Counted from the stretch's first letter, positions 1 through 27,049 are shown. The stretch is DNA of 33,600 nt from a virus (IMGVR_UViG_2534681900_000010), one strand, 5' to 3'. Numbers and translations: made by a program. The notes: generated by a model not told the origin, from the letters alone.

Positions 1-981
1 TTATAACGTCACTCCGCCTTTTAGTGGATTCAGAGCGACGGCGTTCTGCAGGTAGTCAGGCGCAAGGTGCGCATAGGTCATTGTCTGCTGAATGCTCGCA
101 TGCCCCAGAATCTGTTGCAGTGCAATTATGTTGCCCCCATTCATCATGAAATGGCTTGCGAATGTATGCCGCAGAATGTGGGTTGCCTGATTGGGAGGTA
201 TATCAGGTTTCACTCTGCGTAAAATCCCGCAAAACTTCTCATAATCTACCTTGAACAATTTGGCGCTGGCCTCCTCTTTAACTTTTTTCTCCAGTTCCTC
301 AGAAATCGGCACTGTTCGCTTTTTACCGTTTTTGGTTTTCAGGAAGGTAACCCTGCAACTTGTAATCTGTGCTGGTTTTAGCGTGGCAACTTCCGTCCAT
401 CTTCCTCCAGTGCTCAGACATAAAAGCGCGACAAGTAAGTCATCACCAGTCAAAACATTTAGCAGTTTTTCGATTTCTGCTTTTTCCAGGAACGTCATTT
501 CAGGGTTAGCCTCCGTCAGTGGCGGCAGTCCGTGAATTGGGTGTTGCCCGGAAAATTCATCCAATTGAATTAATTTTGTGAACATGCCGGATAATCGGTA
601 CATGTCGCGGTTTATCGTTGCAGCACTGATGCCATCACGTAGTCGCATGGAGCGATAATCCATCAAAGCCCTTTTGTTCATCCGACTCACTGGTATATCA
701 CCTATGCCGCTGATGGTTTTGAGCAGATGATTAAACTCTTTTGTCCCATGCTCGTGGTTTTGCCCGTGGTATTTCCACCAGATGTCGAGCAATTCTGTCA
801 AAGTTCGGCGGTCTGCTCGCTGGCCTCCCCATTCTTTCTGACTGGCATTGACGATTGTGTATCGCTCAAATGCTACCGCTTCAGCTTTTCTTTCAAATTT
901 CCTGCGGATGCGTTTTCCATCGCGACCGCGAGGCCTGATATCCACTTCATAACGTCCATCATCGAGCTTTCTGATACTCAT
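1..981 (-). CDS. int: Tyrosine site-specific integrase (P2 Int-like)
   Basis: C-terminal catalytic region ...ATHILRHTFASHFMMNGG...GHASIQQTMTYAHL (HxxR and Tyr nucleophile). Sits at the prophage left end next to the C repressor. ORF-track ORF 1..1191 is trimmed to the ATG at 979-981 (MSIRKLDDGRYEV...); the upstream extension overlaps C and is not taken as coding. Confidence 0.9.
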   Translation of the reverse strand: MSIRKLDDGRYEVDIRPRGRDGKRIRRKFERKAEAVAFERYTIVNASQKEWGGQRADRRTLTELLDIWWKYHGQNHEHGTKEFNHLLKTISGIGDIPVSRMNKRALMDYRSMRLRDGISAATINRDMYRLSGMFTKLIQLDEFSGQHPIHGLPPLTEANPEMTFLEKAEIEKLLNVLTGDDLLVALLCLSTGGRWTEVATLKPAQITSCRVTFLKTKNGKKRTVPISEELEKKVKEEASAKLFKVDYEKFCGILRRVKPDIPPNQATHILRHTFASHFMMNGGNIIALQQILGHASIQQTMTYAHLAPDYLQNAVALNPLKGGVTL

Positions 982-1093
982 AAAGCCCTCCGATGAACAC
1001 GAGTTTTCTTGTTGTTTAGCCCTTTGTGGTTGTGTGATGAATATTTTTTTACCAGTAACATGCATTTTATGTGCATGTAATGTCGGTAAATAG

Positions 1094-1387
1094 TTAGCCA
1101 GTTTTGCGGCCTGAGTGTGACGATGTTGTTTCTTCTGGCCCAGAGTGTGCGACGACCGGGGAAATCTGCCCGGATTCTGGCGCAATCTCATCTGTCATAA
1201 TCCATAATGTATATTTTTTAAACAGCGGTGTGTTGACTACTTGCTTTACGATTTGTAGTCCTGGCTCTTTATGTCCACCTTCATAATTTTTCAACGAACT
1301 AAGTGCTAATCCACTAAGCTCGCAAAATTTTTTTTGTGTTAATCCCTCGGCCTTGCGAATAGCGCGAAGTTTCTCCGATATTTTCAT
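1094..1387 (-). CDS. C: Immunity repressor C (HTH, XRE-like)
   Basis: 97-aa protein with N-terminal helix-turn-helix (GLTQKKFCELSGLALSSLKNYEGG) and a C-terminus ...YTLWIMTDEIAPESGQISPVVAHSG... recalled as P2 C-like. Divergent from cox across a short operator region. Confidence 0.85.
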   Translation of the reverse strand: MKISEKLRAIRKAEGLTQKKFCELSGLALSSLKNYEGGHKEPGLQIVKQVVNTPLFKKYTLWIMTDEIAPESGQISPVVAHSGPEETTSSHSGRKTG

Positions 1388-2230: not shown

Positions 2231-2347
2231 GTCGTTATTCCTTGTGTTACGAACTACTTGCTTACATTTGGAGTGAAAGCAATTGGATAGTACCACAAGA
2301 CCATGCGCCGGACATGGCTAAAAACCGGCTCTGTTTCAGGAGGAGTT

Positions 2348-2518
2348 ATGCAGGAACCTCGTTGTATTGCTCAGTTATTGCGTAACGAAAGCCCCAGGGC
2401 GATTGACTTCACCATCACCCACGGGAAGGGACGCAAGGGAATCATTATCCGCACCAAAAAACAGAGTCCGTTAAAAAAGGCTCTGACCTTTCTGAAAAGC
2501 CGGAGGGTCTGGAAATGA
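2348..2518 (+). CDS. Hypothetical small basic protein
   Basis: ORF 2303..2518; the likely start is the ATG at 2348 preceded by AGGAGG. Its stop overlaps the start of the following gene (ATGA-type coupling). Confidence 0.4.
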   Translation: MQEPRCIAQLLRNESPRAIDFTITHGKGRKGIIIRTKKQSPLKKALTFLKSRRVWK

Positions 2519-3015
2519 CAGTGATGACGCTCAATCTCGTTGAAAAACAGCCAGCAGCTATGCGCCGGATAATTGGTAAGCATCTGGCCGTCCCTCGCTG
2601 GCAGGAGACATGTGATTATTATAATCACATGATGGAGCGCGAACGGTTAACGGTTTGCTTCCATGCTCAGTTAAAACAGCGTCACGCAACGATGCGTTTT
2701 GAAGAAATGAACGACGTCGAACGTGAACGACTGGTATGTGCAATTGATGAATTGCGCGGGGCATTCTCAAAACGCCGTCAGGTTGGCGCAAGTGAGTATG
2801 CATATATTAGTTTTTTAACAGTCAGTCAGCGTCGCACTTTATTTATGCACGCACGACTGACAGAAAAAGAATTTAACCAGCCATACTGGCGAATTAATGA
2901 GGAATCATGTTACTGGCGTGATGCTTTATTCCGTGCATTACGTGAATTATTCAGTCTGTTTGAGTATGCACCGACAATTCTGACGTCGGTAAAACCAGAG
3001 CAATATCTGCATTAA
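2515..3015 (+). CDS. B: Replication gene B-like protein (putative helicase loader)
   Basis: 166-aa ORF at the position of P2 gene B between cox and A. Assignment is by position and size, from memory. Confidence 0.55.
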   Translation: MTVMTLNLVEKQPAAMRRIIGKHLAVPRWQETCDYYNHMMERERLTVCFHAQLKQRHATMRFEEMNDVERERLVCAIDELRGAFSKRRQVGASEYAYISFLTVSQRRTLFMHARLTEKEFNQPYWRINEESCYWRDALFRALRELFSLFEYAPTILTSVKPEQYLH

Positions 3016-3078
3016 ATAATTAACCAGAGTTTTTAACGCACTTAATCGTGCGGGGCTTCTTTTTGCCTGGAGAAAGTC

Positions 3079-3303
3079 ATGCATACAGTTTCTGAAAACA
3101 AGTGCGGTAAATACGCATTACTGCTGCAACAGGCCAGAGCCGAAGCACAGGCCGACGCAGCGACACGCTTTTCTTCTCATCTTGACGCCATGATTCGCCA
3201 TATCACAAAGGCGGAGTTATCCCGCGTGGAGATAGTCGAGCTGCTCGGTCAGGAGTCGGAAAAATTTCACAATATCGGATTGTCTCGCGGGGAGGTGCTT
3301 TGA
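3079..3303 (+). CDS. Hypothetical early protein (74 aa)
   Basis: ORF with RBS GGAGAAAG upstream; translationally coupled to the next ORF (overlapping TGA/ATG). Confidence 0.5.
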
Positions 3304-3605
3304 TGTCCTGTTCTCATTCAGTTGTATTACTGAATAACGCCTTAAAAATCGCCGTTATGAAAAATGGCGATTTGTCTCTTATTCAACTTTGCCTTGATAA
3401 AGAAAAACGCGACATAACTGAATCTGTTATCGCAATTTATCAGAATGAATTAAACCTCCTGTCTGATGTGGTCAATTTACTTGTTAAACGCGCTGTATTC
3501 CACAAGCAAATTTCCTCCGTGGATGAACTGACAAAATTAACGACAGAACTTGCCAGTTATTGCGCTGATGTATCCAGGAAACTTAACGACAAAAGGAGCT
3601 GGTAA
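3303..3605 (+). CDS. Hypothetical early protein (about 100 aa)
   Basis: ATG at 3303 overlaps the preceding stop. AT-rich ORF; no motif recognised. Confidence 0.5.
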   Translation: MSCSHSVVLLNNALKIAVMKNGDLSLIQLCLDKEKRDITESVIAIYQNELNLLSDVVNLLVKRAVFHKQISSVDELTKLTTELASYCADVSRKLNDKRSW

Positions 3606-3829
3606 TGCCGGACAACGTAGATTTTATTCAGGAACAACAGGCTGAATTACTGGAGCGCCAGATTAACGCGGCAAGGGTAAAACATTGCGGTGCTTCTGCG
3701 CTGGTTTGCGAAGAGTGTGACGCGCCAATACCTGCTGCCCGTCGTGCGGCTTACCCGTCAGCCACGCGTTGTGTTTCCTGTCAGTCAGTCTTTGAAGCAA
3801 AAAACAAACATTACCGGAGAACGGCATGA
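3605..3829 (+). CDS. TraR/DksA-family C4 zinc-finger protein
   Basis: 74-aa product with CxxC...CxxC (LVCEECDAPI...TRCVSCQ), typical of small phage TraR/DksA-like proteins. Coupled to flanking ORFs. Confidence 0.7.
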   Translation: MPDNVDFIQEQQAELLERQINAARVKHCGASALVCEECDAPIPAARRAAYPSATRCVSCQSVFEAKNKHYRRTA

Positions 3830-4101
3830 GTATTCGTATTGAAATTGGCGAACGTTATGTCGTTACCAGTGACAGCTTTCAGTTTATTCTCCACGAGAAA
3901 AAGAGAGCGGAAAGCGGTAAAAACGCCGGTCAGGAATGGCTGGCGGTGGTTGGTTATTACCCGAAATTAAGCCAGCTCGTTTCCGGCCTGATGCATCACG
4001 ATATTCTGACCGGAAGCGCAAAGTCTTTTGCTGATTTAAACGCGCAGGTTGAGCAACTCAGCAGGCGTTGTTCAGAGGCTTTTGGCTCATATGGCCGTTA
4101 A
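3826..4101 (+). CDS. Hypothetical early protein (91 aa)
   Basis: ORF whose stop (4099-4101) overlaps the A start codon region. No motif recognised. Confidence 0.5.
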   Translation: MSIRIEIGERYVVTSDSFQFILHEKKRAESGKNAGQEWLAVVGYYPKLSQLVSGLMHHDILTGSAKSFADLNAQVEQLSRRCSEAFGSYGR

Positions 4102-6400
4102 AGCCTCCGGGCGTTTTGTCCCTCCGTCAGCATTTGCCGCAGGCACCGGTAAGACGTTTACCGGTGCTTATGCATGGAACGCGCCACGCGAGGCTGTCGG
4201 GCGCGAAAGACCCCTTACACGTGACGAGATGCGTCAGGTGCAAGGTGTTTTATCCACGATTAACCGCCTGCCTTACTTTTTGCGCTCGCTGTTTACTTCA
4301 CGTTATGACTACATCCGGCGCAATAAAAGCCCGGTGCACGGGTTTTATTTCCTCACATCCACTTTTCAGCGTCGTTTATGGCCGCGCATTGAGCGTGTGA
4401 ATCAGCGCCATGAAATGAACACCGACGCGTCGTTGCTGTTTCTGGCAGAGCGTGACCACTATGCGCGCCTGCCGGGAATGAATGACAAGGAGCTGAAAAA
4501 GTTTGCTGCCCGTATCTCATCGCAGCTTTTCATGATGTATGAGGAACTCTGCGATGCCTGGGTTGATGCACATGGCGAAAAAGAATCGCTGTTTACGGAT
4601 GAGGCGCAGGCTCACCTCTATGGTCATGTTGCTGGCGCTGCACGTGCTTTCAATATTTCCCCGCTCTACTGGAAAAAATACCGTAAAGGACAGATGACCA
4701 CGAGGCAGGCATATTCTGCCATTGCCCGCCTGTTTAACGATGAGTGGTGGACTCATCAGCTTAAAGGCCAGCGTATGCGCTGGCATGAGGCGTTACTGAT
4801 TGCTGTCGGGGAGGTCAATAAAGACCGTTCTCCTTATGCCAGTAAACATGCCATTCGTGATGTGCGTGCACGCCGCCAGGCAAATCTGGAATTTCTTAAA
4901 TCGTGTGACCTCGAAAACAGGGAAACCGGCGAACGCATCGACCTTATCAGTAAGGTGATGGGCAGTATTTCTAATCCTGAAATTCGCCGGATGGAGCTGA
5001 TGAACACCATTGCCGGTATTGAGCGTTACGCCACCGCAGAGGGTGATGTGGGGATGTTTATCACGCTGACCACGCCGTCAAAGTATCACCCGACACGTCA
5101 GGTCGGAAAAGGCGAAAATAAAACCGTCCAGCTTAATCACGGCTGGAACGATGAGGCATTTAATCCAAAGGATGCGCAGCGTTATCTCTGCCGTATCTGG
5201 AGCCTGATGCGCACGGCATTCAAGGATAATGACTTACAGGTCTACGGTTTGCGTGTCGTCGAGCCACACCACGACGGAACGCCGCACTGGCATATGATGC
5301 TTTTTTGTAATCCACGCCAGCGTAACCAGATTATTGAAATCATGCGTCGCTACGCGCTCAAAGAGGATGGAGACGAAAGAGGAGCCGCGCGAAACCGTTT
5401 TCAGGCAAAACATCTTAACCGGGGCGGTGCTGCGGGGTATATCGCGAAATACATCTCAAAAAACATCGATGGCTATGCACTGGATGGTCAGCTCGATAAC
5501 GATACCGGCAGGCCGCTGAAAGATACTGCTGCGGCTGTTACCGCATGGGCGTCAACGTGGCGCATTCCGCAATTTAAAACGGTTGGTCTGCCGACAATGG
5601 GGGCTTACCGTGAACTACGCAAATTGCCTCGCGGCGTCAGCATTGCTGATGAGTTTGACGAGCGCGTCGAGGCTGCACGCGCCGCTGCAGACAGTGGTGA
5701 TTTTGCGTTGTATATCAGCGCGCAGGGCGGGGCAAATGTCCCGCGCGATTGTCAGACTGTCAGGGTCGCCCGTAGCCCGTCGGATGACGTTAACGAGTAC
5801 GAGGAAGAGGTCGAGAGAGCGGTCGGCATTTACGCGCCGCATCTCGGCGCGCGTCATATTCATATCACCAGAACGACGGACTGGCGCATTGTGCCGAAAG
5901 TTCCGGTCGTTGAGCCTTTGACTTTAAAAAGCGGCATCGCCGCGCCTCGGAGTCCTGTCAATAACTGTGGAAAGCTCACCGGTGGTGATACTTCGTCACC
6001 GGCTCCCACGCCTTCTGAACACGCCGCAGCAGTGCTTAATCTGGTAGATGACGGTGTTATTGAATGGAATGACCCGGTGGTCGTGAGGGCGCTCAGAGGC
6101 GCATTAAAATACGGCCTGAGAAGACCAAACCGTCAGCAAAGAAACGGAATACCGTTAAAACCGCATGAAATAGCACCATCGGCCAGGCTGACCCGGTCAG
6201 AACGAATGCAAATTACCCGTATCCGTGTTGACCTTGCTCAGAACGGTATCAGGCCTCAGCGATGGGAGCTTGAGGCGCTGGCGCGTGGGGCGACCGTAAA
6301 TTATGACGGGAAACAATTTACGTATCCGGTTGCTGATGAGTGGCCGGGATTTTTACAAACAGAAATTGTTTTTGGGATTAATAAGTTATCTCTAAGCTAA
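4091..6400 (+). CDS. A: Replication initiation endonuclease A (rolling-circle initiator)
   Basis: 769-aa product beginning MAVKASGRFVPPSAFAAGTGK..., recalled as highly similar to P2 gpA. ORF-track ORF 4049..6400 is trimmed to the ATG at 4091. Confidence 0.9.
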   Translation: MAVKASGRFVPPSAFAAGTGKTFTGAYAWNAPREAVGRERPLTRDEMRQVQGVLSTINRLPYFLRSLFTSRYDYIRRNKSPVHGFYFLTSTFQRRLWPRIERVNQRHEMNTDASLLFLAERDHYARLPGMNDKELKKFAARISSQLFMMYEELCDAWVDAHGEKESLFTDEAQAHLYGHVAGAARAFNISPLYWKKYRKGQMTTRQAYSAIARLFNDEWWTHQLKGQRMRWHEALLIAVGEVNKDRSPYASKHAIRDVRARRQANLEFLKSCDLENRETGERIDLISKVMGSISNPEIRRMELMNTIAGIERYATAEGDVGMFITLTTPSKYHPTRQVGKGENKTVQLNHGWNDEAFNPKDAQRYLCRIWSLMRTAFKDNDLQVYGLRVVEPHHDGTPHWHMMLFCNPRQRNQIIEIMRRYALKEDGDERGAARNRFQAKHLNRGGAAGYIAKYISKNIDGYALDGQLDNDTGRPLKDTAAAVTAWASTWRIPQFKTVGLPTMGAYRELRKLPRGVSIADEFDERVEAARAAADSGDFALYISAQGGANVPRDCQTVRVARSPSDDVNEYEEEVERAVGIYAPHLGARHIHITRTTDWRIVPKVPVVEPLTLKSGIAAPRSPVNNCGKLTGGDTSSPAPTPSEHAAAVLNLVDDGVIEWNDPVVVRALRGALKYGLRRPNRQQRNGIPLKPHEIAPSARLTRSERMQITRIRVDLAQNGIRPQRWELEALARGATVNYDGKQFTYPVADEWPGFLQTEIVFGINKLSLS

Positions 6401-6522
6401 GACGCTCAAAGCAAGAGATTATTTTACTGTACGTAGCCATCTGGAATTGTGGCTGTGTTAAAACGCTCGAGATTTTTTGGATATCCAGTTATACTCCGCT
6501 TAGAAATCATTCGGAGACTAAG

Positions 6523-7569
6523 ATGGCGGTAAAAGTTGTTGATCTTTTTTGCGGTGCTGGCGGTTTAACGCACGGCTTACATTTGGCCGGATTGGACGTT
6601 GTCGCAGGCATTGATTTAGAAGGTGAGTGTCGTGTTGCATACGAAAGCAATAATGATGCACTTTTTATTGAAAAAGATATATCTCTGGTGACAAAAGATG
6701 AAATCGAAAATCTTTTTGAAGGGGCAAGTGTTAAAGTATTGGCCGGATGTGCACCTTGTCAGCCATTTTCTAAATATACTCAGGGAAAAGATAAAAAAAA
6801 TGATAAAAAGTGGCCGTTATTATATGAGTTTGAACGTTTAATAAAAGACACGAAACCAGAAATAGTTACAATGGAAAACGTTCCTGATGTGACAAAACAT
6901 TCTGTCTATGATGATTTTTATAATACCTTAATAGCATTGGGTTATTATGTTTGGGCAAATAAGATTGAATGTGTAGATTTTGAGGTTCCGCAAAACAGAG
7001 TGAGGCATGTATTACTCGCATCTAAATTTGCGCCGATTTCTCTGATGAAACCACAAACATCGGTAAAGCTGACAGTTAGGGATTGCATTGGTAATTTACC
7101 TTCGATTGAAGCGGGACAAGCAGATCCAAAAGACCCTCTCCATAAGGCGAGTAGATTGAGTGAAATTAATCTCAAACGTATTCTACATTCAAAACCGGGG
7201 GGGACATGGAGGGATTGGCCTGCTGAATTAATCGCTTCATGTCATGCCAAGAAAAGTGGGCAGGGATATGCCAGTGTTTATGGTCGTATGTCTTGGGATA
7301 AACCGAGTCCAACGATAACTACACTTTGTTATGGTTTTGGTAATGGACGTTTTGGTCATCCCGAGCAGCATCGTGCAATCTCACTTAGGGAAGCAGCATT
7401 ACTTCAAACGTTTCCTGTTACATATTCATTTACCCAACCGGGCGAGCCGATCAAAATGAAAAATGTCGGGCGTATGATAGGTAATGCTGTTCCTGTAAAC
7501 TTAGGTAAAGCGATTGGTCTTTCAATAGTACATCATTTGAAAGAGTTTCACCCCGCCGCTCTTAAATAA
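6523..7569 (+). CDS. DNA (cytosine-5)-methyltransferase
   Basis: All canonical C5-MTase motifs are present in order: DLFCGAGG (motif I, AdoMet), GCAPCQPFS (motif IV, catalytic Cys), TMENVPDV (motif VI), VPQNRVRHVLL (motif VIII), MIGNAVPVNLGKAIG (motif X). Visibly AT-rich relative to the phage backbone. Confidence 0.9.
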   Translation: MAVKVVDLFCGAGGLTHGLHLAGLDVVAGIDLEGECRVAYESNNDALFIEKDISLVTKDEIENLFEGASVKVLAGCAPCQPFSKYTQGKDKKNDKKWPLLYEFERLIKDTKPEIVTMENVPDVTKHSVYDDFYNTLIALGYYVWANKIECVDFEVPQNRVRHVLLASKFAPISLMKPQTSVKLTVRDCIGNLPSIEAGQADPKDPLHKASRLSEINLKRILHSKPGGTWRDWPAELIASCHAKKSGQGYASVYGRMSWDKPSPTITTLCYGFGNGRFGHPEQHRAISLREAALLQTFPVTYSFTQPGEPIKMKNVGRMIGNAVPVNLGKAIGLSIVHHLKEFHPAALK

Positions 7570-8267
7570 GCCTGAGTATCAAGATAAGTTTGTATATTTT
7601 CAAGGATGCAGTTGAGATAATGAAAAACTTCATCCTTCATTTCTGTTAGTGTATCAATAGATGTATCTCTGCCTTTGTTTCTAAATGATTCAGAACCATG
7701 AGCAAGGTCGTTTCTGGCCTTTTTTATTGGAAGTAAATTGCAACCATTTCGCGTTATTTCTGAATCTGTATCTGCTGAGAAGCCATATTTTTCAGCGACT
7801 TCTCTAATTTTTCTAGCGTCAACATTTCCAGAAAATAACGGATTTTTATTTGATTGGATAAGTTTTTTGTGAGCGTTTAGCCACTCTTTAAATATAACTT
7901 TTGCAATGTTCCCTTGTGAGAAATCTATTTTCCCATTTGGTGATTGTAAACTATGAAATGCTACTCTTGTAAGGTTTTCATTTACAGTGTCTGCACATAA
8001 TGATTCATTAGACATTAAAACATTATGAATGTCTTCTATTGCATTGGAAATGGTTGCTTCAATGAGATTGTACAATATAATAAATGCATTAGCCTTTAAA
8101 ATATGAGTCATATCAATATCAATGGGTTGTTGTATAGGCGCATCGCTTGTATTCTCTTTATAGACTAGAGATGGTTTTTTGTTTATTAGTAACTGAATGA
8201 ATGAGAAGTATTCATTAATATCTTGCATTCTTTCTTGGAAAAGAATTTTACTTGTCATCTCCTCCAT
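7548..8267 (-). CDS. HEPN-like predicted RNase (239 aa), second gene of the DUF262 operon
   Basis: Rx4H motif in KKARNDLAHGSESF near the C-terminal third. Start ATG is 10 nt downstream of the DUF262 gene stop; its 3' end overlaps the convergent MTase by 22 bp. AT-rich. Confidence 0.6.
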   Translation of the reverse strand: MEEMTSKILFQERMQDINEYFSFIQLLINKKPSLVYKENTSDAPIQQPIDIDMTHILKANAFIILYNLIEATISNAIEDIHNVLMSNESLCADTVNENLTRVAFHSLQSPNGKIDFSQGNIAKVIFKEWLNAHKKLIQSNKNPLFSGNVDARKIREVAEKYGFSADTDSEITRNGCNLLPIKKARNDLAHGSESFRNKGRDTSIDTLTEMKDEVFHYLNCILENIQTYLDTQAYLRAAG

Positions 8268-8277
8268 TTACTTGGCC

Positions 8278-9423
8278 TCACTCCATATTTTCATCTTCAT
8301 TTTCATCTTCGTCGACAATATTTTCTGGAATGTCTTTCCCAAGCAACTTGTTTTTTACATATTCAATGCGTGCTTTAACTTTGGGTTTAGAGTTGCTGGC
8401 ATCTGAACGTGTGTGCGTGATAAACTCTTTCGAGTTGATCCAGTCATCAATATTTTTAGGAACTAAATTGGGTTCTTCCTCTAGTGCTAATGTTGCACCG
8501 ACGGCAAGAGCTTCGAAACGAATCCTAGGAACAGTGGTGGCGTTTTTCACCTTTCTGAAACCATTTGGGAAATGTGTATTAATGAATTGGCTCATTTTAT
8601 GAAATTTTTCCGCCAGCATAGCTGCGTTTTCATCTGTATATTCGGCATTTTTACGTTTTAAATAGGTTGTAAGAAATTCATCAACGCTTTTTCTGAAATC
8701 AAGATATTCTTCAGTGTAGGCAAAGTAGCGTAGTGCCAATTCTGGATATTCAGAGCGACGTTTTCTTGCATCTCCCAAAGGACAGATGCTATGAAATAGA
8801 GGATCTTCGGAAATTTCATTGATAAATGCAAGGAATGGCCCATCATGGCTACCTTGCCGTTGTTCCATTGTTGTTAGTTTTTTTCCGCCAGTATTCAGAC
8901 GGTCAAAAATTTCCCTTCTTGTCTCTTCGTCACAATGTTCTGTAAGTTCAATCATTCGAATAGTTTTTCTATCAAAACGTAGGCGACGGGGAGTACTGAA
9001 ATCAGAATATTTAAAACCATTGGCTGTGACTAATTTCTGCAGGCCTTCAAGAGTTAGTTTGTTATTGGTAAATTGGTGTAGGGTTCTTATTCGTTGGCTA
9101 CCGTCAACAATTTCAAGTCTACCTTCATTTTCACCTGAACCAATATCGGCAACGAATATGTAAGGTATAGGAAGATTTAAAAGCAGAGATTCAATGAAAC
9201 GGGATTTTTGCTTGTTGTTCCAGATAAACTCCCTTTGGTAGTCAGGTATAAAAAGCTCTGCCTCATCTTCTTCAAGACCATTCTGAAATTTGTCCACAAT
9301 AACACTTATCGGGAACTCACGTATTTCATGGTCAGTGATTTTTTGCATTTCAACTATGCTTTGATCTAAAAGCTCCTTTTCTTCTTTAGTTTTTGGGGTA
9401 TGTTCTGCTTTTTTTCTCGCCAT
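8278..9423 (-). CDS. DUF262 (ParB/GmrSD-N-like) domain protein (381 aa)
   Basis: N-terminal region ...FIPDYQREFIWNNKQKSRFIESLLLNLPIPYIFVADIGSGENEGRLEIVDGSQRIRTLHQF contains the DGxQR signature of DUF262. Acidic C-terminal tail (DEDENEDENME). RBS AGGAT about 10 nt upstream. AT-rich. Confidence 0.7.
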   Translation of the reverse strand: MARKKAEHTPKTKEEKELLDQSIVEMQKITDHEIREFPISVIVDKFQNGLEEDEAELFIPDYQREFIWNNKQKSRFIESLLLNLPIPYIFVADIGSGENEGRLEIVDGSQRIRTLHQFTNNKLTLEGLQKLVTANGFKYSDFSTPRRLRFDRKTIRMIELTEHCDEETRREIFDRLNTGGKKLTTMEQRQGSHDGPFLAFINEISEDPLFHSICPLGDARKRRSEYPELALRYFAYTEEYLDFRKSVDEFLTTYLKRKNAEYTDENAAMLAEKFHKMSQFINTHFPNGFRKVKNATTVPRIRFEALAVGATLALEEEPNLVPKNIDDWINSKEFITHTRSDASNSKPKVKARIEYVKNKLLGKDIPENIVDEDENEDENME

Positions 9424-9450
9424 GAGCTTATTATCCTACTATGCGTGTGA

Positions 9451-9539
9451 TTGCATTAAATTGCATGTTAAACAAAAGCATAATCTATATCAGTCAATCA
9501 GCCAGTGGCAAGGTGTTGTGATTACAATGCAACTGCATT
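9451..9539. promoter_or_regulatory. TGCAT-containing direct and inverted repeats upstream of the DUF262 operon
   Basis: TTGCAT at 9451-9456 and 9461-9466, one helical turn apart; inverted repeat AATGCA-AC-TGCATT at 9526-9539. Sits between the operon start (9423) and cos. Confidence 0.3.
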
Positions 9540-9562
9540 AGAACCGACTCATGAAGCGGGCG

Positions 9563-9581
9563 GGCGAGGCGGGGAAAGCAC
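9563..9581. other. cos site (19-nt cohesive-end sequence, P2-type)
   Basis: GGCGAGGCGGGGAAAGCAC matches the P2 cohesive-end sequence as recalled, at the expected place just past the Q 3' end. Confidence 0.75.
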
Positions 9582-9723
9582 TGCGCGCTGGCGGTGGTGC
9601 TGATTTTATTTTTTCAGCGTCTGAGCGCGTCGTGAAGGCGTTTACTTGGCCTGCTGGGGCGTTGGTGTGTCTGCGGGATTTTTTGTGCGGTGATGAGCGT
9701 GTGAGGGCGTGATGACGGGGTGT

Positions 9724-9745
9724 AAAAAAGCCGCCCGCAGGCGGC
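9724..9745 (-). terminator. Rho-independent terminator downstream of Q
   Basis: Hairpin GCCGCC-cgca-GGCGGC flanked on the plus strand by an A6 run, which is a T-run on the minus strand, immediately past the Q stop. Confidence 0.6.
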
Positions 9746-9750
9746 GATGT

Positions 9751-10785
9751 TCAGTCGTTGTCAGTGTCCAGTGAGTAGTTTTTAAAGCGGATGACCTCCT
9801 GACCGAGCCAGCCGTTTATCTCGCGGATCCTGTCCTGTAGCGGGATAAGCTCATTGCGGACAAAGACCTTTGCCACTTTCTCAATATCACCCAGCGACCC
9901 GACGTTCTCCGGCTTGCCGCCCATCAACTGAAAGGGGATGCGGTGCGCGTCCAGCAGGTCAGCGGCACTGGCTTTTTTGATATTAAAAAAATCGTCCTTC
10001 GTCGCCACTTCACTGAGGGGGATAATTTTAATGCCGTCGGCTTTCCCCTGCGGGGCATAGAGAAACAGATTTTTAAAGTTATTGCGGCCTTTCGACTTAA
10101 CCATGTTTTCGCGAAGCATTTCGATATCGTTGCGATCCTGCACGGCATCGGTGACGTACATGATGTATCCGGCATGTGCGCCATTTTCGTAATATTTGCG
10201 GCGGAACAGCGTGGCCGACTCATTCAGCCAGGCAGAGTTAAGGGCGCTGAGATATTCCGGCAGGCCGTACAGCTCCTGATTAATATCCGGCTCCAGCAGG
10301 TGAAACACGGAGCCGGGCGTGAAGGCTGTCGGCTCGTTGAAGGACGGCACCCACCAGTAAACATCCTCCTCCACACCACGGCGGGTATATTTTGCCGGTG
10401 AGGTTTCCAGTCTGATGACCTTACCGGTGGTGCTGTAACGCTTTTCCAGAAACGCATTACCGAACACGAGAAAATCCAGCACAAAGCGGCTGAAATCCTG
10501 TTGCGAAAGCCACGGATGCGGGATAAATGTCGAGGCCAGAATATTGCGTTTGACGTAAATCGGCGAGCTGTGATGCACGGCAGCACGCAGGCTTTTCGCC
10601 AGACCGGTAAAGCTGACCGGCGGCTCATACCATCTGCCGTTACTGATGCACTCGACGTAATCCAGAATGTCACGGCGGTCGAGTACCGGCACCGGCTCAC
10701 CAAAGGTGAATGCCTCCATTTTCGGGGCGCTGGCGGTCATTTTTTTTGCCGCAGGTTGCGGTGTTTTCCCTTTTTTCTTACTCAT
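9751..10785 (-). CDS. Q: Portal (capsid vertex) protein
   Basis: 344 aa, the size recalled for P2 gpQ. Adjacent to cos and divergent from O. Start overlaps the P stop. Confidence 0.9.
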   Translation of the reverse strand: MSKKKGKTPQPAAKKMTASAPKMEAFTFGEPVPVLDRRDILDYVECISNGRWYEPPVSFTGLAKSLRAAVHHSSPIYVKRNILASTFIPHPWLSQQDFSRFVLDFLVFGNAFLEKRYSTTGKVIRLETSPAKYTRRGVEEDVYWWVPSFNEPTAFTPGSVFHLLEPDINQELYGLPEYLSALNSAWLNESATLFRRKYYENGAHAGYIMYVTDAVQDRNDIEMLRENMVKSKGRNNFKNLFLYAPQGKADGIKIIPLSEVATKDDFFNIKKASAADLLDAHRIPFQLMGGKPENVGSLGDIEKVAKVFVRNELIPLQDRIREINGWLGQEVIRFKNYSLDTDND

Positions 10786-24186: not shown

Positions 24187-24714
24187 ATGCAGCATTTGAA
24201 AAATATTACGGCGGGTAATCCAAAAACGGTTGAACAATATCAATTGACAAAGGGTTTTGATGTTGTCTGGTTTTTTTCAGAAGATGGTAAGAACTGGTAC
24301 GAAGAACAAAAGTATTTTGCTGATGACACGATAAAAATAGCGTACGACAAAGATAATATTATCCGCTATGTGGAAAAGGATGTGACAGCTATCAGACCGG
24401 ATGGATTAAGTGTTGTTGAAGTGGCGGATATTACTGCTAACCGACGGGCGGACATTTCAGGGGGCTGGATGTTTAAGGACGGCAAAGTGATTAAACGCAT
24501 TTATACGGCAGAGGAATTGCTGCAGCAGGCAGAAAACCGGAAAGCCAGACTTCTTGCAGATGCTGAATCCGTGATTTTGCCGCTGGAGCGCGCGGTCAGA
24601 CTGAACATGGCAACAGATGAGGAGCGTAGCCGACTGGATGCATGGGAGCGTTACAGCGTTCTGGTCAGTCGTGTGGATCCTGCAAATCCTGAATGGCCGG
24701 AAATGCCGCAATAA
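24187..24714 (+). CDS. G: Tail fibre assembly chaperone
   Basis: 175 aa immediately after H; size and position as recalled for P2 gpG. Confidence 0.85.
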
Positions 24715-24935: not shown

Positions 24936-25529
24936 ATGTTTACTAAGCGACGATTAAAAAATATTAACTGGGAGGCAAGTTCAGTGATTCTTGCTATGGT
25001 TCTCTTTGTTGGAAATATATTTTATACAAATCATCGTGATGATATAAGCATGGAGGCTGAGAGGGACAGTATCAGAACAATGTTTGCATATGAAATCGCT
25101 AATAACCATCGCGCTCTCACTTTTCTTGATAAAACGAGATATATTGGCTTTGACGAAAATTCGGAGCATTTTGTTGGCGAGCCTTTTGCCATTAATGTCA
25201 AATCATTAGGGGGGCCTCGCTTACAGATTGCATTAAACCAGAGTGATAAAGTGTTTAAATCCTACTTCAGCGAATTAAGTAAGCTTGATAAAGAGGATGT
25301 TACTCTTCTTATGGACTATTACCATGAGCAAAGCATCCTGCTGGAGCGTGTAAAATCTACGTTACAGAAGATGAAAAGTGGTAATGATATTAAAGTTGAT
25401 ATTGATGGTTACTTATTAGAAGAACACTTCATGAATGAGCTTAATCTTTCTAATATTTTGCTTAAACGCTATAGCCATTTGTTGTCACAACACGCCAAAG
25501 AACATAAAACAAAAGATTTACATAATTGA
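24936..25529 (+). CDS. Hypothetical membrane-anchored protein (197 aa) at the Z/fun accessory locus
   Basis: AT-rich ORF between G and FI. RBS AAGGTG 6 nt upstream. N-terminal hydrophobic segment SSVILAMVLFVGNIFY after a basic MFTKRRLK start. No recognisable catalytic motif. Confidence 0.6.
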   Translation: MFTKRRLKNINWEASSVILAMVLFVGNIFYTNHRDDISMEAERDSIRTMFAYEIANNHRALTFLDKTRYIGFDENSEHFVGEPFAINVKSLGGPRLQIALNQSDKVFKSYFSELSKLDKEDVTLLMDYYHEQSILLERVKSTLQKMKSGNDIKVDIDGYLLEEHFMNELNLSNILLKRYSHLLSQHAKEHKTKDLHN

Positions 25530-25858: not shown

Positions 25859-27049
25859 ATGAGTGACTATCATCACGGCGTGCAGGTGCTGGAGATTAAC
25901 GACGGCACCCGCGTCATTTCCACCGTATCCACCGCCATTGTTGGCATGGTCTGCACGGCCAGCGATGCGGATGCGGAAACCTTCCCCGTCAATAAACCGG
26001 TGCTGATCACCAATGTGCAGAGCGCGATTGCAAAGGCCGGTAAAAAAGGCACGCTGGCGGCATCGTTGCAGGCCATCGCTGACCAGTCAAAACCGGTCAC
26101 CGTTGTCGTGCGCGTGGAAGACGGCACCGGCGACGACGAAGAAACGAAACTCGCGCAGACCGTTTCCAATATCATCGGCACCACTGACGAAAACGGTCAG
26201 TACACCGGACTGAAAGCCCTGATGGGCGCAGAGTCGGTTACCGGCGTTAAACCGCGCATTCTCGGCGTACCGGGACTGGACACCAAAGAGGTGGCGGTTG
26301 CACTGGCATCGGTATGCCAGGAACTGAATGCCTTCGGGTATATCAGCGCATGGGGCTGTAAAACCATTTCCGAGGCAAAAGCCTACCGTCAGAATTTCAG
26401 TCAGCGTGAGCTGATGGTCATCTGGCCGGATTTCCTTGCATGGGATACGGTCACCAGTACCACCGCCACCGCGTATGCCACCGCCCGTGCGCTGGGGCTG
26501 CGTGCCAGAATCGACCAGGAGCAGGGCTGGCATAAAACGCTGTCCAACGTCGGGGTAAACGGTGTTACCGGCATCAGCGCATCTGTATTCTGGGATTTGC
26601 AGAAGTCTGGCACTGATGCTGACCTGCTGAACGAGGCAGGCGTCACAACGCTGGTTCGCCGCGACGGTTTCCGTTTCTGGGGTAACCGTACCTGCTCCGA
26701 TGACCCACTTTTCCTCTTTGAAAGCTACACACGTACCGCGCAGGTACTGGCCGACACGATGGCTGAGGCGCACATGTGGGCTATTGATAAGCCCATCACC
26801 GCAACGCTGATTCGCGACATCATTGATGGCATCAATGCCAAATTCCGCGAACTGAAAAACAACGGTTATATCGTGGATGGCACATGCTGGTTCAGTGAAG
26901 AAGCCAACGATGCGGAAACCCTCAAGGCCGGAAAACTGTATATCGACTACGACTATACACCGGTGCCTCCTCTCGAAAACCTGACCCTGCGCCAGCGTAT
27001 TACTTCAAGATACCTGGCAAGTCTGGTCACCTCGGTTAACAGCAATTAA
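25859..27049 (+). CDS. FI: Tail sheath protein
   Basis: 396 aa; size and position as recalled for P2 gpFI. Confidence 0.9.
   Translation: MSDYHHGVQVLEINDGTRVISTVSTAIVGMVCTASDADAETFPVNKPVLITNVQSAIAKAGKKGTLAASLQAIADQSKPVTVVVRVEDGTGDDEETKLAQTVSNIIGTTDENGQYTGLKALMGAESVTGVKPRILGVPGLDTKEVAVALASVCQELNAFGYISAWGCKTISEAKAYRQNFSQRELMVIWPDFLAWDTVTSTTATAYATARALGLRARIDQEQGWHKTLSNVGVNGVTGISASVFWDLQKSGTDADLLNEAGVTTLVRRDGFRFWGNRTCSDDPLFLFESYTRTAQVLADTMAEAHMWAIDKPITATLIRDIIDGINAKFRELKNNGYIVDGTCWFSEEANDAETLKAGKLYIDYDYTPVPPLENLTLRQRITSRYLASLVTSVNSN

What the first reader, a model, noticed from the sequence alone, without database searches (positions are those of the whole stretch)
6401..9562. AT-rich cargo island replaces tin/old at the A-to-cos accessory hotspot
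In P2 the segment between replication gene A and cos carries the anti-phage genes tin and old and is a known variable hotspot for defence cargo in P2-like prophages. Here it holds three genes instead (a C5 methyltransferase, an HEPN-like protein and a DUF262 protein). All are visibly lower in GC than the flanking backbone, which points to horizontal acquisition.
Basis: partly seen in the sequence, partly recalled or inferred. Interest (0 to 1): 0.7.

Follow-up and report, generated by a model that had tools for sequence, protein, structure and literature searches.

The report
Prophage defence cassette: methylase, sensor, nuclease
A P2-type prophage of E. coli carries a foreign three-gene cassette (a DNA methylase, a DNA-sensing protein and a nuclease) in the slot where phage P2 keeps its anti-phage genes; it is very probably an untested restriction-modification-like immune system, but the slot and the gene families are already known, so it is a new variant and not a new kind of thing.

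Summary
Homology to P2 stops at 6351 and resumes at 9534, just before cos at 9563-9581. The 3.2 kb between has 37% GC against 53% elsewhere, and GC3 of 0.25-0.30 against 0.54-0.72. It encodes a C5 methyltransferase (6523-7569 +), a MAE_28990-family HEPN protein (7548-8267 -) and a DUF262/ParB protein (8278-9423 -). They replace P2's orf91-tin-old. This cargo is in 7 of 5426 E. coli genomes, whereas 2172 carry a P2-type portal.

The three genes are one cassette, not three separate cargoes. DUF262 directly precedes the HEPN gene in every related locus. An orthologous methylase adjoins the pair in five bacterial phyla and in several unrelated mobile elements. The same methylase family also pairs with DISARM helicases or with a GHKL "type II REase", including at this same P2 hotspot. 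That pattern marks it as an interchangeable self-marking arm.

The most likely mechanism is methylation-gated, restriction-modification-like defence. The DUF262 NTPase would sense unmarked DNA and the HEPN nuclease would act as effector. This is inferred, not shown.

The closest validated relative is PD-T4-2 (DUF262 + HEPN, no methylase). The gene trio was noted computationally in 2013. Verdict: a new variant of a known kind, of moderate interest.

The parts
6352..9533 (.). Variable, low-GC cargo segment between the conserved P2 backbone blocks
   Evidence: BLASTN against P2 NC_001895 shows homology ending at 6351 and resuming at 9534. GC is 0.372 against 0.530 elsewhere.
6523..7569 (+). C5 cytosine DNA methyltransferase of the DrmMII-like orthologous group; proposed self-marking arm
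   Evidence: It matches PF00145 at 1.8e-54 and TIGR00675 at 2.9e-36, and PADLOC DrmMII at 1.9e-89. Motifs FCGAGG, PCQPFS, ENV, QNRVR and GNAVP are readable in the translation. The target-recognition region is as conserved as the catalytic motifs.
7197..7203 (+). G7 homopolymer inside the methylase gene (codons CCG GGG GGG A)
   Evidence: It is the only G/C run of 7 or more in the window. It reads G8 in phage P24B2 and G6 in E. coli 2015C-4136CT1; both are frameshifts and are the only indels among five copies that are 99.9% identical. The in-frame protein is seen on 410 contigs.
7548..8267 (-). MAE_28990-family HEPN protein, the proposed effector nuclease. The start may be 8267 or 8258; PGAP calls the 236-aa form.
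8278..9423 (-). ParB-DUF262 NTPase with a C-terminal ParBDB-type domain and an acidic tail; NsnA / PD-T4-2A-like; the proposed DNA sensor
9482..9511 (-). Candidate sigma-70 promoter for the DUF262-HEPN operon (TTGCCA-18-TAGATT)
   Evidence: Found by the consensus scan. The number of such sites in the region is not above chance, so this is only a candidate. The region has no homology to the P2 old promoter.
6467..6495 (+). Candidate sigma-70 promoter for the methylase gene (TCGAGA-17-TATACT)
   Evidence: Found by the consensus scan; not above chance.
9563..9581 (+). P2 cos 19-nt cohesive end; right-hand limit of the hotspot
   Evidence: The sequence GGCGAGGCGGGGAAAGCAC is read. It matches cosR of P2. 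The P24B2 record ends at window position 9562.
4049..6400 (+). Replication gene A; left flank. Its last 49 nt (6352-6400) are not P2-like.
   Evidence: Phage_GPA matches at 2e-123. The homology break lies at 6351.
9751..10785 (-). Portal gene Q; right flank
   Evidence: Phage_portal matches at 2.9e-14. The region is 98% identical to P2-like prophages in 2172 E. coli genomes.

Best explanation
The low-GC segment is one horizontally acquired defence cassette. It sits in the P2 A-to-cos hotspot in place of orf91-tin-old and is carried as a lysogenic-conversion module.

It has two arms. The first is a DrmMII-family C5 cytosine methyltransferase. The second is a convergently transcribed two-gene operon: a ParB-DUF262 NTPase with a ParBDB DNA-binding domain (NsnA / PD-T4-2A-like), followed by a MAE_28990-family HEPN nuclease.

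Proposed mechanism (inferred):
1. The methylase puts 5mC on a fixed short motif in the lysogen's DNA, as a self mark.
2. The DUF262 protein scans DNA and responds to DNA that lacks the mark. NTP binding or hydrolysis acts as its switch.
3. This licenses the HEPN partner to cut nucleic acid, most probably RNA, which stops the infecting phage or arrests the cell.
4. Methylation acts as an off switch and not as an absolute shield, so loss of the methylase need not kill the cell.

Shown here: gene content, intact catalytic motifs, folds, cassette co-inheritance, interchangeability of the methylase arm, and the hotspot location.

Inferred: defence activity, the direction of methyl-sensing, the effector's substrate, and the target motif.
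For: One cassette.
- DUF262 lies immediately upstream of the HEPN gene in every one of about 78 species-level loci that have upstream sequence. An orthologous C5-MTase is adjacent in 31 of 80 loci.
- These 31 loci come from Proteobacteria, Bacteroidota, Acidobacteriota, Desulfobacterota and Cyanobacteria.
- The methylase is also adjacent in 6 of 6 further proteobacterial and metagenomic contexts, in Moraxella phages, and in 45 IMG/VR contigs.
- MTase and DUF262 pairwise distances correlate at r = 0.93.

Methylase as a self-marking arm.
- The same orthologous MTase has 45-75% identity to the window protein, and its target-recognition region is at least as conserved as the catalytic part.
- Elsewhere it sits next to DrmD/DrmA DISARM helicases or a GHKL "REase_II". 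This includes 7 P2-like phages where the arrangement is A - MTase - REase - portal.
- In DISARM, such methylases mark self DNA and methylation acts as an off switch (10.1101/2021.12.28.474362).

Sensor.
- NTPase motifs I-III are invariant in 26 + 43 homologues.
- The fold matches BrxU and SspE. In those proteins DUF262 senses DNA modification and activates a nuclease (PMC10952713, PMC12065111).
- The residues that best separate methylase-linked from methylase-less DUF262 proteins all lie in the C-terminal DNA-binding domain. Examples are N344 and Y236.
- That domain's tree sorts by methylase presence: 2 state changes in 96 of 100 bootstraps, against 3-6 for the N-terminal domain and HEPN.

Effector.
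- RNxLAHG is invariant or nearly so, and the HEPN fold is confirmed.

Defence role.
- The cassette sits at a published defence hotspot (PMC9519451, PMC9122126).
- PD-T4-2, a DUF262 + HEPN pair from the same two Pfam HEPN families, protects against T4 both natively and when transplanted.
- Vsr genes lie next to the cassette in two lineages, which implies that real 5mC is made there.
Against: - No experiment exists for this subtype.
- The HEPN protein matches no PADLOC model, even at E = 10.
- About 25 cyanobacterial species keep an intact DUF262-HEPN pair with no methylase within about 7 kb, flanked by housekeeping genes. So the pair can exist without the linked methylase and is not a classical lethal restriction enzyme.
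- Two of the five near-identical copies carry a frameshifted methylase with an intact pair. These may be sequencing errors.
- The closest validated relative, PD-T4-2, has no methylase and restricts T4, whose DNA is hypermodified. That would fit modification-dependent sensing as well as the proposed model does.
- The correlation between C-domain residues and methylase presence is confounded by phylogeny, and it weakens in the broader viral sample (P299 in 35/43, R302 in 38/43).
- HEPN as an RNase is a family-level expectation, not a result obtained here.
Confidence: 0.5

Rival explanations
1. The DUF262-HEPN pair is an autonomous, modification-dependent (type IV-like) or otherwise phage-triggered module, like PD-T4-2, GmrSD or BrxU. 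On this view the methylase is a functionally separate passenger, for example an anti-restriction or epigenetic protection device for the mobile element.
For: PD-T4-2 works without a methylase and acts on T4. The GmrSD and BrxU DUF262 domains sense modified cytosines. Many cyanobacterial pairs lack the methylase. Methylase-frameshift variants keep the pair intact.
Against: The methylase is co-inherited with the pair across five phyla with tight gene packing, with 3' ends overlapping or 4-bp overlaps. The same methylase orthologue serves as the self-marking arm of DISARM and of a GHKL REase. A pair that attacked 5mC DNA would be self-destructive next to a 5mC methylase. DUF262 C-domain residues co-vary with methylase presence.
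Confidence: 0.22
2. An SspE-like logic applies. The 5mC mark on host DNA is a required activating cofactor for the DUF262 NTPase and not an off switch. The system is armed only in methylated cells and then acts on any unmarked invading DNA or on RNA.
Against: Nothing here discriminates this from the off-switch model. Methylase-less lineages keep intact catalytic motifs, which is odd if the mark were required, although their C-terminal domain has changed.
Confidence: 0.15
3. The cassette is mainly an addiction or stabilisation module for the prophage, working by post-segregational killing as in some type II R-M and toxin-antitoxin systems. The HEPN protein would be the toxin and methylation or DUF262 the antidote.
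Against: In cyanobacteria the pair sits stably next to housekeeping genes without the methylase. The position is a dedicated defence hotspot, not a maintenance region. The DUF262 sensor architecture is that of defence systems.
Confidence: 0.08
4. The cargo is inert: decaying genes with no current function.
For: A frameshift-prone G tract lies in the methylase. The cargo is rare in E. coli.
Against: All three ORFs are intact with every catalytic motif. The identical proteins occur on hundreds of contigs (410 for the methylase; 182 collection blocks for DUF262). Sequence conservation is strong across phyla.
Confidence: 0.03

Closest known systems
PD-T4-2 (Vassallo et al. 2022, E. coli ECOR65)
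   Same: It is a two-gene operon with DUF262 first and a HEPN protein second. The window's DUF262 protein matches the PD-T4-2_A model at 1.3e-34. By HHpred, PD-T4-2B belongs to the same two Pfam families (PF18735, PF18737) that the window's HEPN protein matches. It is validated against T4 both in the native strain and in K-12.
   Different: PD-T4-2B is only about 165 aa, and its PADLOC model does not detect the window's 239-aa HEPN protein. PD-T4-2 was cloned and works without a methylase. The window's DUF262 protein scores higher against NsnA than against PD-T4-2_A.
MAE_28990 HEPN - ParB - DNA methylase gene neighbourhood (Anantharaman et al. 2013, PMC3710099)
   Same: [quoted passage not shown] PGAP already names the window protein a "MAE_28990/MAE_18760 family HEPN-like nuclease".
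   Different: That description is purely computational, with no function, mechanism or system name. The P2 hotspot location, the interchange of the methylase arm, and the methylase-less subfamily were not described there, as far as the held text shows.
P2 tin/old locus and the P2 A-to-portal defence hotspot (Rousset 2022; Vassallo 2022)
   Same: The position is identical, between gene A and cos/Q. The long operon has the same orientation, reading leftward from near cos as old-tin does. The cargo is variable and has atypical composition.
   Different: The cargo genes are unrelated to tin and old. The promoter region is not homologous to that of old.
Menshen (NsnABC)
   Same: The best PADLOC match of the DUF262 protein is NsnA, at 1.3e-54 over nearly its full length, which implies the ParB-DUF262 + ParBDB architecture.
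   Different: There is no NsnB ATPase and no NsnC effector. The partner is a HEPN protein and a methylase is linked.
GmrSD / BrxU / SspE (DUF262 + DUF1524 enzymes)
   Different: There is no DUF1524 HNH domain, and the nuclease is a separate HEPN protein. The modification is 5mC made by a single methylase, not phosphorothioate or a phage hypermodification.
DISARM (DrmMII methylase arm) and GHKL-ATPase "type II REase" + C5-MTase pairs
   Same: The methylase is an orthologue of those found beside DrmD/DrmA and beside GHKL REases, with a conserved target-recognition region. The GHKL version occupies the same P2 hotspot in 7 IMG/VR phages.
   Different: The restriction arm here is DUF262 + HEPN. 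No DrmA, DrmB, DrmC or GHKL protein is present in the window.

Membership tests
P2-like A-to-cos (tin/old) accessory/defence hotspot | Located between replication gene A and cos / portal gene Q of a P2-like genome | tested here: met
   GPA at 4049-6400, cos at 9563-9581 and portal at 9751-10785. P2 homology breaks at 6351 and 9534.
P2-like A-to-cos (tin/old) accessory/defence hotspot | Content varies among otherwise similar P2-like prophages and has atypical composition | tested here: met
   The trio is in 7 genomes against 2172 with the portal. P2 has orf91-tin-old here. Other P2-like phages carry MTase + GHKL REase here. GC is 0.372 against 0.530.
PD-T4-2 | DUF262 protein homologous to PD-T4-2_A | tested here: met
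   The PADLOC PD-T4-2_A model matches at 1.3e-34 over residues 59-356. NsnA scores higher.
PD-T4-2 | Adjacent HEPN protein homologous to PD-T4-2_B | tested here: not met
   The HEPN protein has no PADLOC hit even at E <= 10. There is only clan-level kinship: both proteins hit PF18735 and PF18737.
PD-T4-2 | Anti-phage activity of the two-gene operon | not testable with these tools
   This needs plaque assays.
Menshen (NsnABC) | NsnA-like ParB-DUF262 + ParBDB protein | tested here: met
   NsnA matches at 1.3e-54, covering protein residues 31-358 and model positions 41-377 of 385.
Menshen (NsnABC) | NsnB ATPase and NsnC effector encoded downstream | tested here: not met
   The only downstream genes are HEPN and the convergent methylase.
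GmrSD / BrxU / SspE type IV-like enzymes | DUF262 NTPase domain with QRxxxW, DGxQR and FxxxN motifs | tested here: met
GmrSD / BrxU / SspE type IV-like enzymes | DUF1524 His-Me (HNH) nuclease domain, fused or adjacent | tested here: not met
   No such Pfam hit was found. The C-terminal half is helical and of ParBDB type.
HEPN superfamily, MAE_28990 family | Rx4-6H catalytic motif and the helical HEPN fold | tested here: met
Classical type II restriction-modification | Complete C5 methyltransferase with all catalytic motifs | tested here: met
   PF00145 matches over positions 2-323 of 324. Motifs I, IV, VI, VIII, IX and X are present.
Classical type II restriction-modification | Adjacent sequence-specific DNA endonuclease that is lethal without the methylase | tested here: inconclusive
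   No known REase fold is present. The partner is DUF262 + HEPN. Methylase-less lineages and frameshift variants argue against obligate lethality, but no experiment has been done.
DISARM | DrmMII-type C5 methylase | tested here: met
   PADLOC DrmMII (PDLC02651) matches at 1.9e-89. Orthologues sit beside DrmD/DrmA.
DISARM | Core DrmA (helicase), DrmB (DUF1998) and DrmC (PLD) | tested here: not met
   These are absent from the window interval.

The most novel reading that the evidence does not exclude
This would be a restriction-modification-like system whose restriction arm is not a DNA endonuclease. Instead it is a ParB/DUF262 NTP-switch sensor that reads the absence of one fixed 5mC mark and then unleashes a HEPN RNase. 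That amounts to methylation-gated abortive infection. The same portable methylase, and hence the same self mark (possibly the TCGA-type motif reported for a DISARM DrmMII), would be read by three unrelated effector modules that swap at one phage hotspot: DUF262-HEPN, a GHKL ATPase-nuclease, and DISARM.
Probability: 0.25. Interest if true: 0.7.

Novelty: new variant of a known kind. Interest (0 to 1): 0.42.

Why it matters
If the cassette works as proposed, it would be a compact, clonable example (3.2 kb with native promoters, from E. coli) of epigenetic self-marking coupled to a non-REase effector. It would also give PD-T4-2 and other DUF262 + HEPN systems a testable sensing mechanism.

A second point is that one methylase orthologue serves DUF262-HEPN, GHKL "REase" and DISARM modules, sometimes at the same P2 hotspot. 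This suggests that self-marking arms are exchangeable parts of bacterial immunity, and it offers a natural set of swaps to test that idea.

In practice, current defence-finder models miss the system: the HEPN component has no PADLOC model. The cassette is therefore probably under-counted, although thousands of homologues exist.

As a case of "defence cargo at the P2 hotspot", the finding itself is ordinary and expected.

Tried and rejected
- **Menshen, GmrSD/BrxU and DISARM membership:** rejected, because defining partners (NsnB/NsnC, DUF1524, DrmABC) are absent.
- **PD-T4-2 membership in the strict sense:** rejected, because the PD-T4-2_B model gives no hit.
- **PDB sequence searches:** uninformative for the DUF262 and HEPN proteins.
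- **Rfam on the whole window:** no match.
- **Promoter and terminator scan of 6300-9800:** not above shuffled expectation, so the two promoters are only candidates.
- **Repeat search:** no flanking direct or inverted repeats that would indicate a transposon or integron-type insertion.
- **Phase variation of the methylase through the G7 tract:** considered and down-weighted. The tract is not conserved in orthologues, and the in-frame protein occurs on 410 contigs against two frameshifted records, both of which could be homopolymer sequencing errors.
- **Several independent methylase losses:** the idea came from the concatenated NJ tree but is not secure. The C-terminal-domain tree groups nearly all methylase-less forms together, so a single loss plus recombination is equally possible.
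- **Specificity of the methylase:** could not be determined. Its nearest solved relatives (DNMT1, M.HaeIII, M.HhaI) do not fix a motif. The TCGA-type suggestion rests only on orthology with DISARM-linked methylases.
- **Literature:** searches for P24B2 / LR595873 and for mechanistic work on PD-T4-2 found nothing relevant.
Full report
**1. What is there**

The window is a P2-like (Peduovirus) prophage of E. coli. It has an integrase at 1-1191 (-), replication gene A at 4049-6400 (+, Phage_GPA 2e-123) and portal gene Q at 9751-10785 (-).

Between A and Q lie three ORFs:
- a C5 cytosine methyltransferase at 6523-7569 (+), matching PF00145 at 1.8e-54;
- a HEPN protein at 7548-8267 (-), matching PF18737 HEPN_MAE_28990 at 7.6e-18 and PF18735 at 7.6e-07;
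- a DUF262 protein at 8278-9423 (-), matching PF03235 GmrSD_N at 4.7e-28.

Base 6401 follows the stop codon of A. Base 9562 precedes the 19-nt P2 cohesive end GGCGAGGCGGGGAAAGCAC at 9563-9581. BLASTN against P2 (NC_001895) shows backbone homology ending at 6351, inside the last 50 nt of A, and resuming at 9534. In that interval P2 carries orf91, tin and old, with old-tin transcribed leftward from near cos.

**2. Composition and rarity**

The segment 6352-9533 has GC 0.372 against 0.530 for the rest of the window. None of 482 other windows of 3182 bp falls below 0.438 (mean 0.533, sd 0.044). GC3 of the three genes is 0.25-0.30, against 0.54 for A and 0.58-0.72 for most structural genes.

The same segment, at 99.9% identity, is in Peduovirus P24B2 (NC_049387 / LR595873) and in three complete E. 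coli genomes. A variant at 76% identity with the same three genes is in four more genomes. That variant also retains an orf91-like ASCH/DUF3850 gene.

So 7 of 5426 genomes carry the trio, while 2172 carry a P2-type portal region.

**3. The three genes are one cassette**

I collected homologues of the HEPN protein; 548 had E <= 0.001. I then fetched 79 species-level loci from the genome collection and annotated their six-frame ORFs with jackhmmer.

A DUF262 gene lies immediately upstream of the HEPN gene in every locus that has upstream sequence. The two genes often show start/stop overlap.

An orthologous C5 methylase is adjacent in 31 of 80 loci. In 26 it is convergent downstream, as in the window. 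In 5 it is co-directional upstream: Runella, a Cytophagia bacterium, Pyrinomonadaceae, Desulfuromonadales and Parabeggiatoa.

Pairwise distances of the methylase and the DUF262 protein correlate at r = 0.93.

Six further contexts, reached from DUF262 homologues, all contain the methylase:
- Pseudomonas, as Tn7-like cargo;
- Achromobacter, with a Vsr gene;
- Shewanella, in a defence island;
- Rhodocyclaceae, with Vsr and a Tn7 TnsA gene nearby;
- two metagenomic contexts.

Moraxella catarrhalis phages Mcat24-32 carry the same trio in the same arrangement.

This gene neighbourhood was listed in 2013. Table 1 of Anantharaman et al. [quoted passage not shown]

**4. The pair also exists without the methylase**

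About 25 cyanobacterial species have a full-length DUF262-HEPN pair with no DNA methylase within about 7 kb. These pairs are flanked by housekeeping genes such as clpB, an ABC1 kinase gene and glyS. Another 23 loci, mostly Microcoleus, lack a full-length DUF262 gene; in most, only its N-terminal 177 residues remain next to an intact HEPN gene. Catalytic motifs are retained in the methylase-less lineages.

The alignment columns that best separate methylase-linked from methylase-less DUF262 proteins all lie in the C-terminal domain. They are Y236, P299, R302, A305, W328 and N344 in the linked forms, against F, T, K, S, L/F and S in the unlinked forms.

A tree of that domain needs only 2 changes of methylase state in 96 of 100 bootstraps. 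The N-terminal domain needs 3-6 changes and HEPN needs 4-6.

In a broader set of 43 methylase-linked viral copies the signature holds well for N344 (42/42) and Y236 (40/43). It holds less well for P299 (35/43).

This suggests that the DNA-binding domain is tuned to the presence of the methyl mark. It is not proof, because phylogeny confounds the comparison.

**5. The methylase is an interchangeable self-marking arm**

Its best PADLOC model is DrmMII, at 1.9e-89. Its target-recognition region is as conserved across phyla as its catalytic motifs.

I scanned IMG/VR with an alignment of the cassette methylases and kept 80 orthologues with 48-72% identity. Of these, 45 are adjacent to DUF262 + HEPN.

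The other 35 mostly sit beside one of two partners:
- a GHKL-ATPase protein of about 650 aa, matching PF13589 and the PADLOC REase_II model PDLC03419 with E-values down to 1e-96;
- DrmD/DrmA SNF2 helicases, that is, DISARM.

Thirteen of the 80 loci are P2-like. Six of these carry the DUF262-HEPN pair. Seven carry the GHKL protein in the arrangement A - MTase - REase - portal, so the same hotspot holds the same methylase with a different partner. In Pseudomonas the GHKL gene is even inserted between HEPN and a methylase that is 64% identical to the window's.

Identity in the recognition region is equal to or higher than in the catalytic part for all three partner classes, which is consistent with a shared specificity.

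For a Serratia class 1 DISARM system, DrmMII makes 5mC at MTCGAK, methylation acts as an off switch, and loss of the methylases is not autoimmune (10.1101/2021.12.28.474362). Whether the window's enzyme shares that motif is inference only.

**6. The sensor and the effector**

The DUF262 protein matches PADLOC NsnA (Menshen) at 1.3e-54 over almost its whole length, and PD-T4-2_A at 1.3e-34. The three DUF262 motifs are invariant in 26 + 43 homologues: QRxxxW at 63-68, DGSQR at 107-111 and FxxxN at 173-177.

The HEPN protein has no PADLOC model, even at E = 10. In PHROGs both proteins fall in families of unknown function: phrog_3846 and phrog_2598.

**7. Most likely mechanism**

The proposed mechanism is a methylation-gated, restriction-modification-like defence expressed from the prophage. 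The methylase marks lysogen DNA. The DUF262 protein senses DNA without the mark and switches on the HEPN nuclease through its NTPase. The nuclease probably cuts RNA, which blocks the invader or arrests the cell.

The following were shown here:
- gene content;
- intact catalytic motifs;
- protein folds;
- co-inheritance of the cassette;
- modular reuse of the methylase;
- the hotspot location.

The following are inferred:
- defence activity;
- the direction of methyl sensing;
- the effector's substrate;
- the target motif.

The main rival is that the pair is an autonomous, type IV-like or otherwise phage-triggered module like PD-T4-2, and that the methylase is a passenger. The methylase-less lineages and PD-T4-2's activity on T4 support this rival. 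Against it stand the cross-phylum linkage, the reuse of the methylase by two other restriction-type modules, and the self-destructiveness of a 5mC-dependent nuclease placed next to a 5mC methylase.

An SspE-like variant, in which the mark acts as an activator, cannot be separated from the off-switch model by computation.

**8. Comparison with known systems, and novelty**

The cassette works most like PD-T4-2 with a DISARM-type self mark added. It fails strict membership of four families:
- PD-T4-2, because there is no hit to the B component;
- Menshen, because NsnB and NsnC are absent;
- GmrSD/BrxU/SspE, because DUF1524 is absent;
- DISARM, because DrmABC are absent.

The hotspot is published (PMC9122126, PMC9519451). 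The gene trio was noted in 2013. The exact sequence is already in GenBank and RefSeq.

What is not in the held literature is any experimental test or system name for the methylase-linked MAE_28990 subtype. Also absent is the observation that its methylase arm is shared with GHKL and DISARM modules at the same P2 slot.

I rate it a new variant of a known kind, with interest 0.42.

**9. Side observations**

- The methylase gene contains a G7 tract at 7197-7203. This is the only G/C run of 7 or more in the window.
- The tract reads G8 in P24B2 and G6 in strain 2015C-4136CT1. Both are frameshifts, and they are the only indels among five copies that are 99.9% identical.
- The tract is not conserved in orthologues, and the in-frame protein is on 410 contigs. 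Rare slippage or sequencing error is therefore more likely than programmed phase variation.
- A second low-GC ORF at 24936-25529 sits between the tail-fibre assembly gene and the tail sheath gene. This is P2's second accessory hotspot.
- That ORF matches only phrog_3829, a family of unknown function.

Noticed in passing
window 7197-7203: A G7 homopolymer lies inside the methylase gene and is the only G/C run of 7 or more in the window. It reads G8 in phage P24B2 and G6 in E. coli 2015C-4136CT1. Both are frameshifts with the DUF262 and HEPN genes intact, and they are the only indels among five copies that are 99.9% identical. The tract is not conserved in orthologues, and the in-frame protein is seen on 410 contigs. 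Slippage or sequencing error is more likely than true phase variation.
   Followed up: partly
window 24936-25529 (+): A 197-aa ORF with GC 0.352 lies between the tail-fibre assembly gene (24187-24714) and the tail sheath gene (25859-27049). This is the position of P2's second accessory hotspot (Z/fun). It matches phrog_3829 (unknown function) at 5.7e-137 and has no Pfam or PADLOC hit. It is a second candidate cargo gene.
   Followed up: partly
L129 (IMG/VR) 2346-9507; also L123, L130-L132, L136, L137: Other P2-like phages carry an orthologue of the same methylase at the same A-to-portal hotspot. There it is paired with a GHKL-ATPase protein of about 650 aa (PADLOC REase_II) instead of DUF262 + HEPN.
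   Followed up: yes
L008, L030, L033, L041 and about 19 other Microcoleus loci, around 7300-7870: In a Microcoleus clade the DUF262 gene next to clpB keeps only its N-terminal 177 residues. The ParBDB domain has been deleted, while the HEPN gene stays intact. This is either a decaying locus or a minimal form.
   Followed up: partly
alignment A3, C-termini of P0207, P0209, P0225, P0230, P0238, P0240: DUF262 homologues from Betaproteobacteria end in Q[LPQA]GLF[SAE] after a variable acidic linker. This resembles the bacterial sliding-clamp-binding motif (QLxLF), a resemblance recalled from memory and not tested. The window protein has only the acidic tail (DEDENEDENME).
   Followed up: no
window 6352-6400: The last 49 nt of replication gene A are not homologous to P2 or to the variant-2 prophage. 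The recombination junction of the cargo therefore lies inside the 3' end of A and gives A a different C-terminus.
   Followed up: partly
window 7548-7569: The convergent methylase and HEPN genes overlap by 22 bp at their 3' ends. In most related loci the two genes overlap by 4 bp or abut. This could allow transcriptional interference between the two arms.
   Followed up: no
L089 3492-3869; L093 2485-2856: Very-short-patch repair (Vsr) genes lie next to the cassette in Achromobacter and in a Rhodocyclaceae genome. This is indirect evidence that the linked methylase really makes 5mC in vivo.
   Followed up: no
L001 (NC_049387) 4123-5170: The RefSeq phage record P24B2 annotates the methylase as two pieces (234 aa and 37 aa) because of the G8 tract. 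It labels the DUF262 and HEPN genes as hypothetical proteins.
   Followed up: yes
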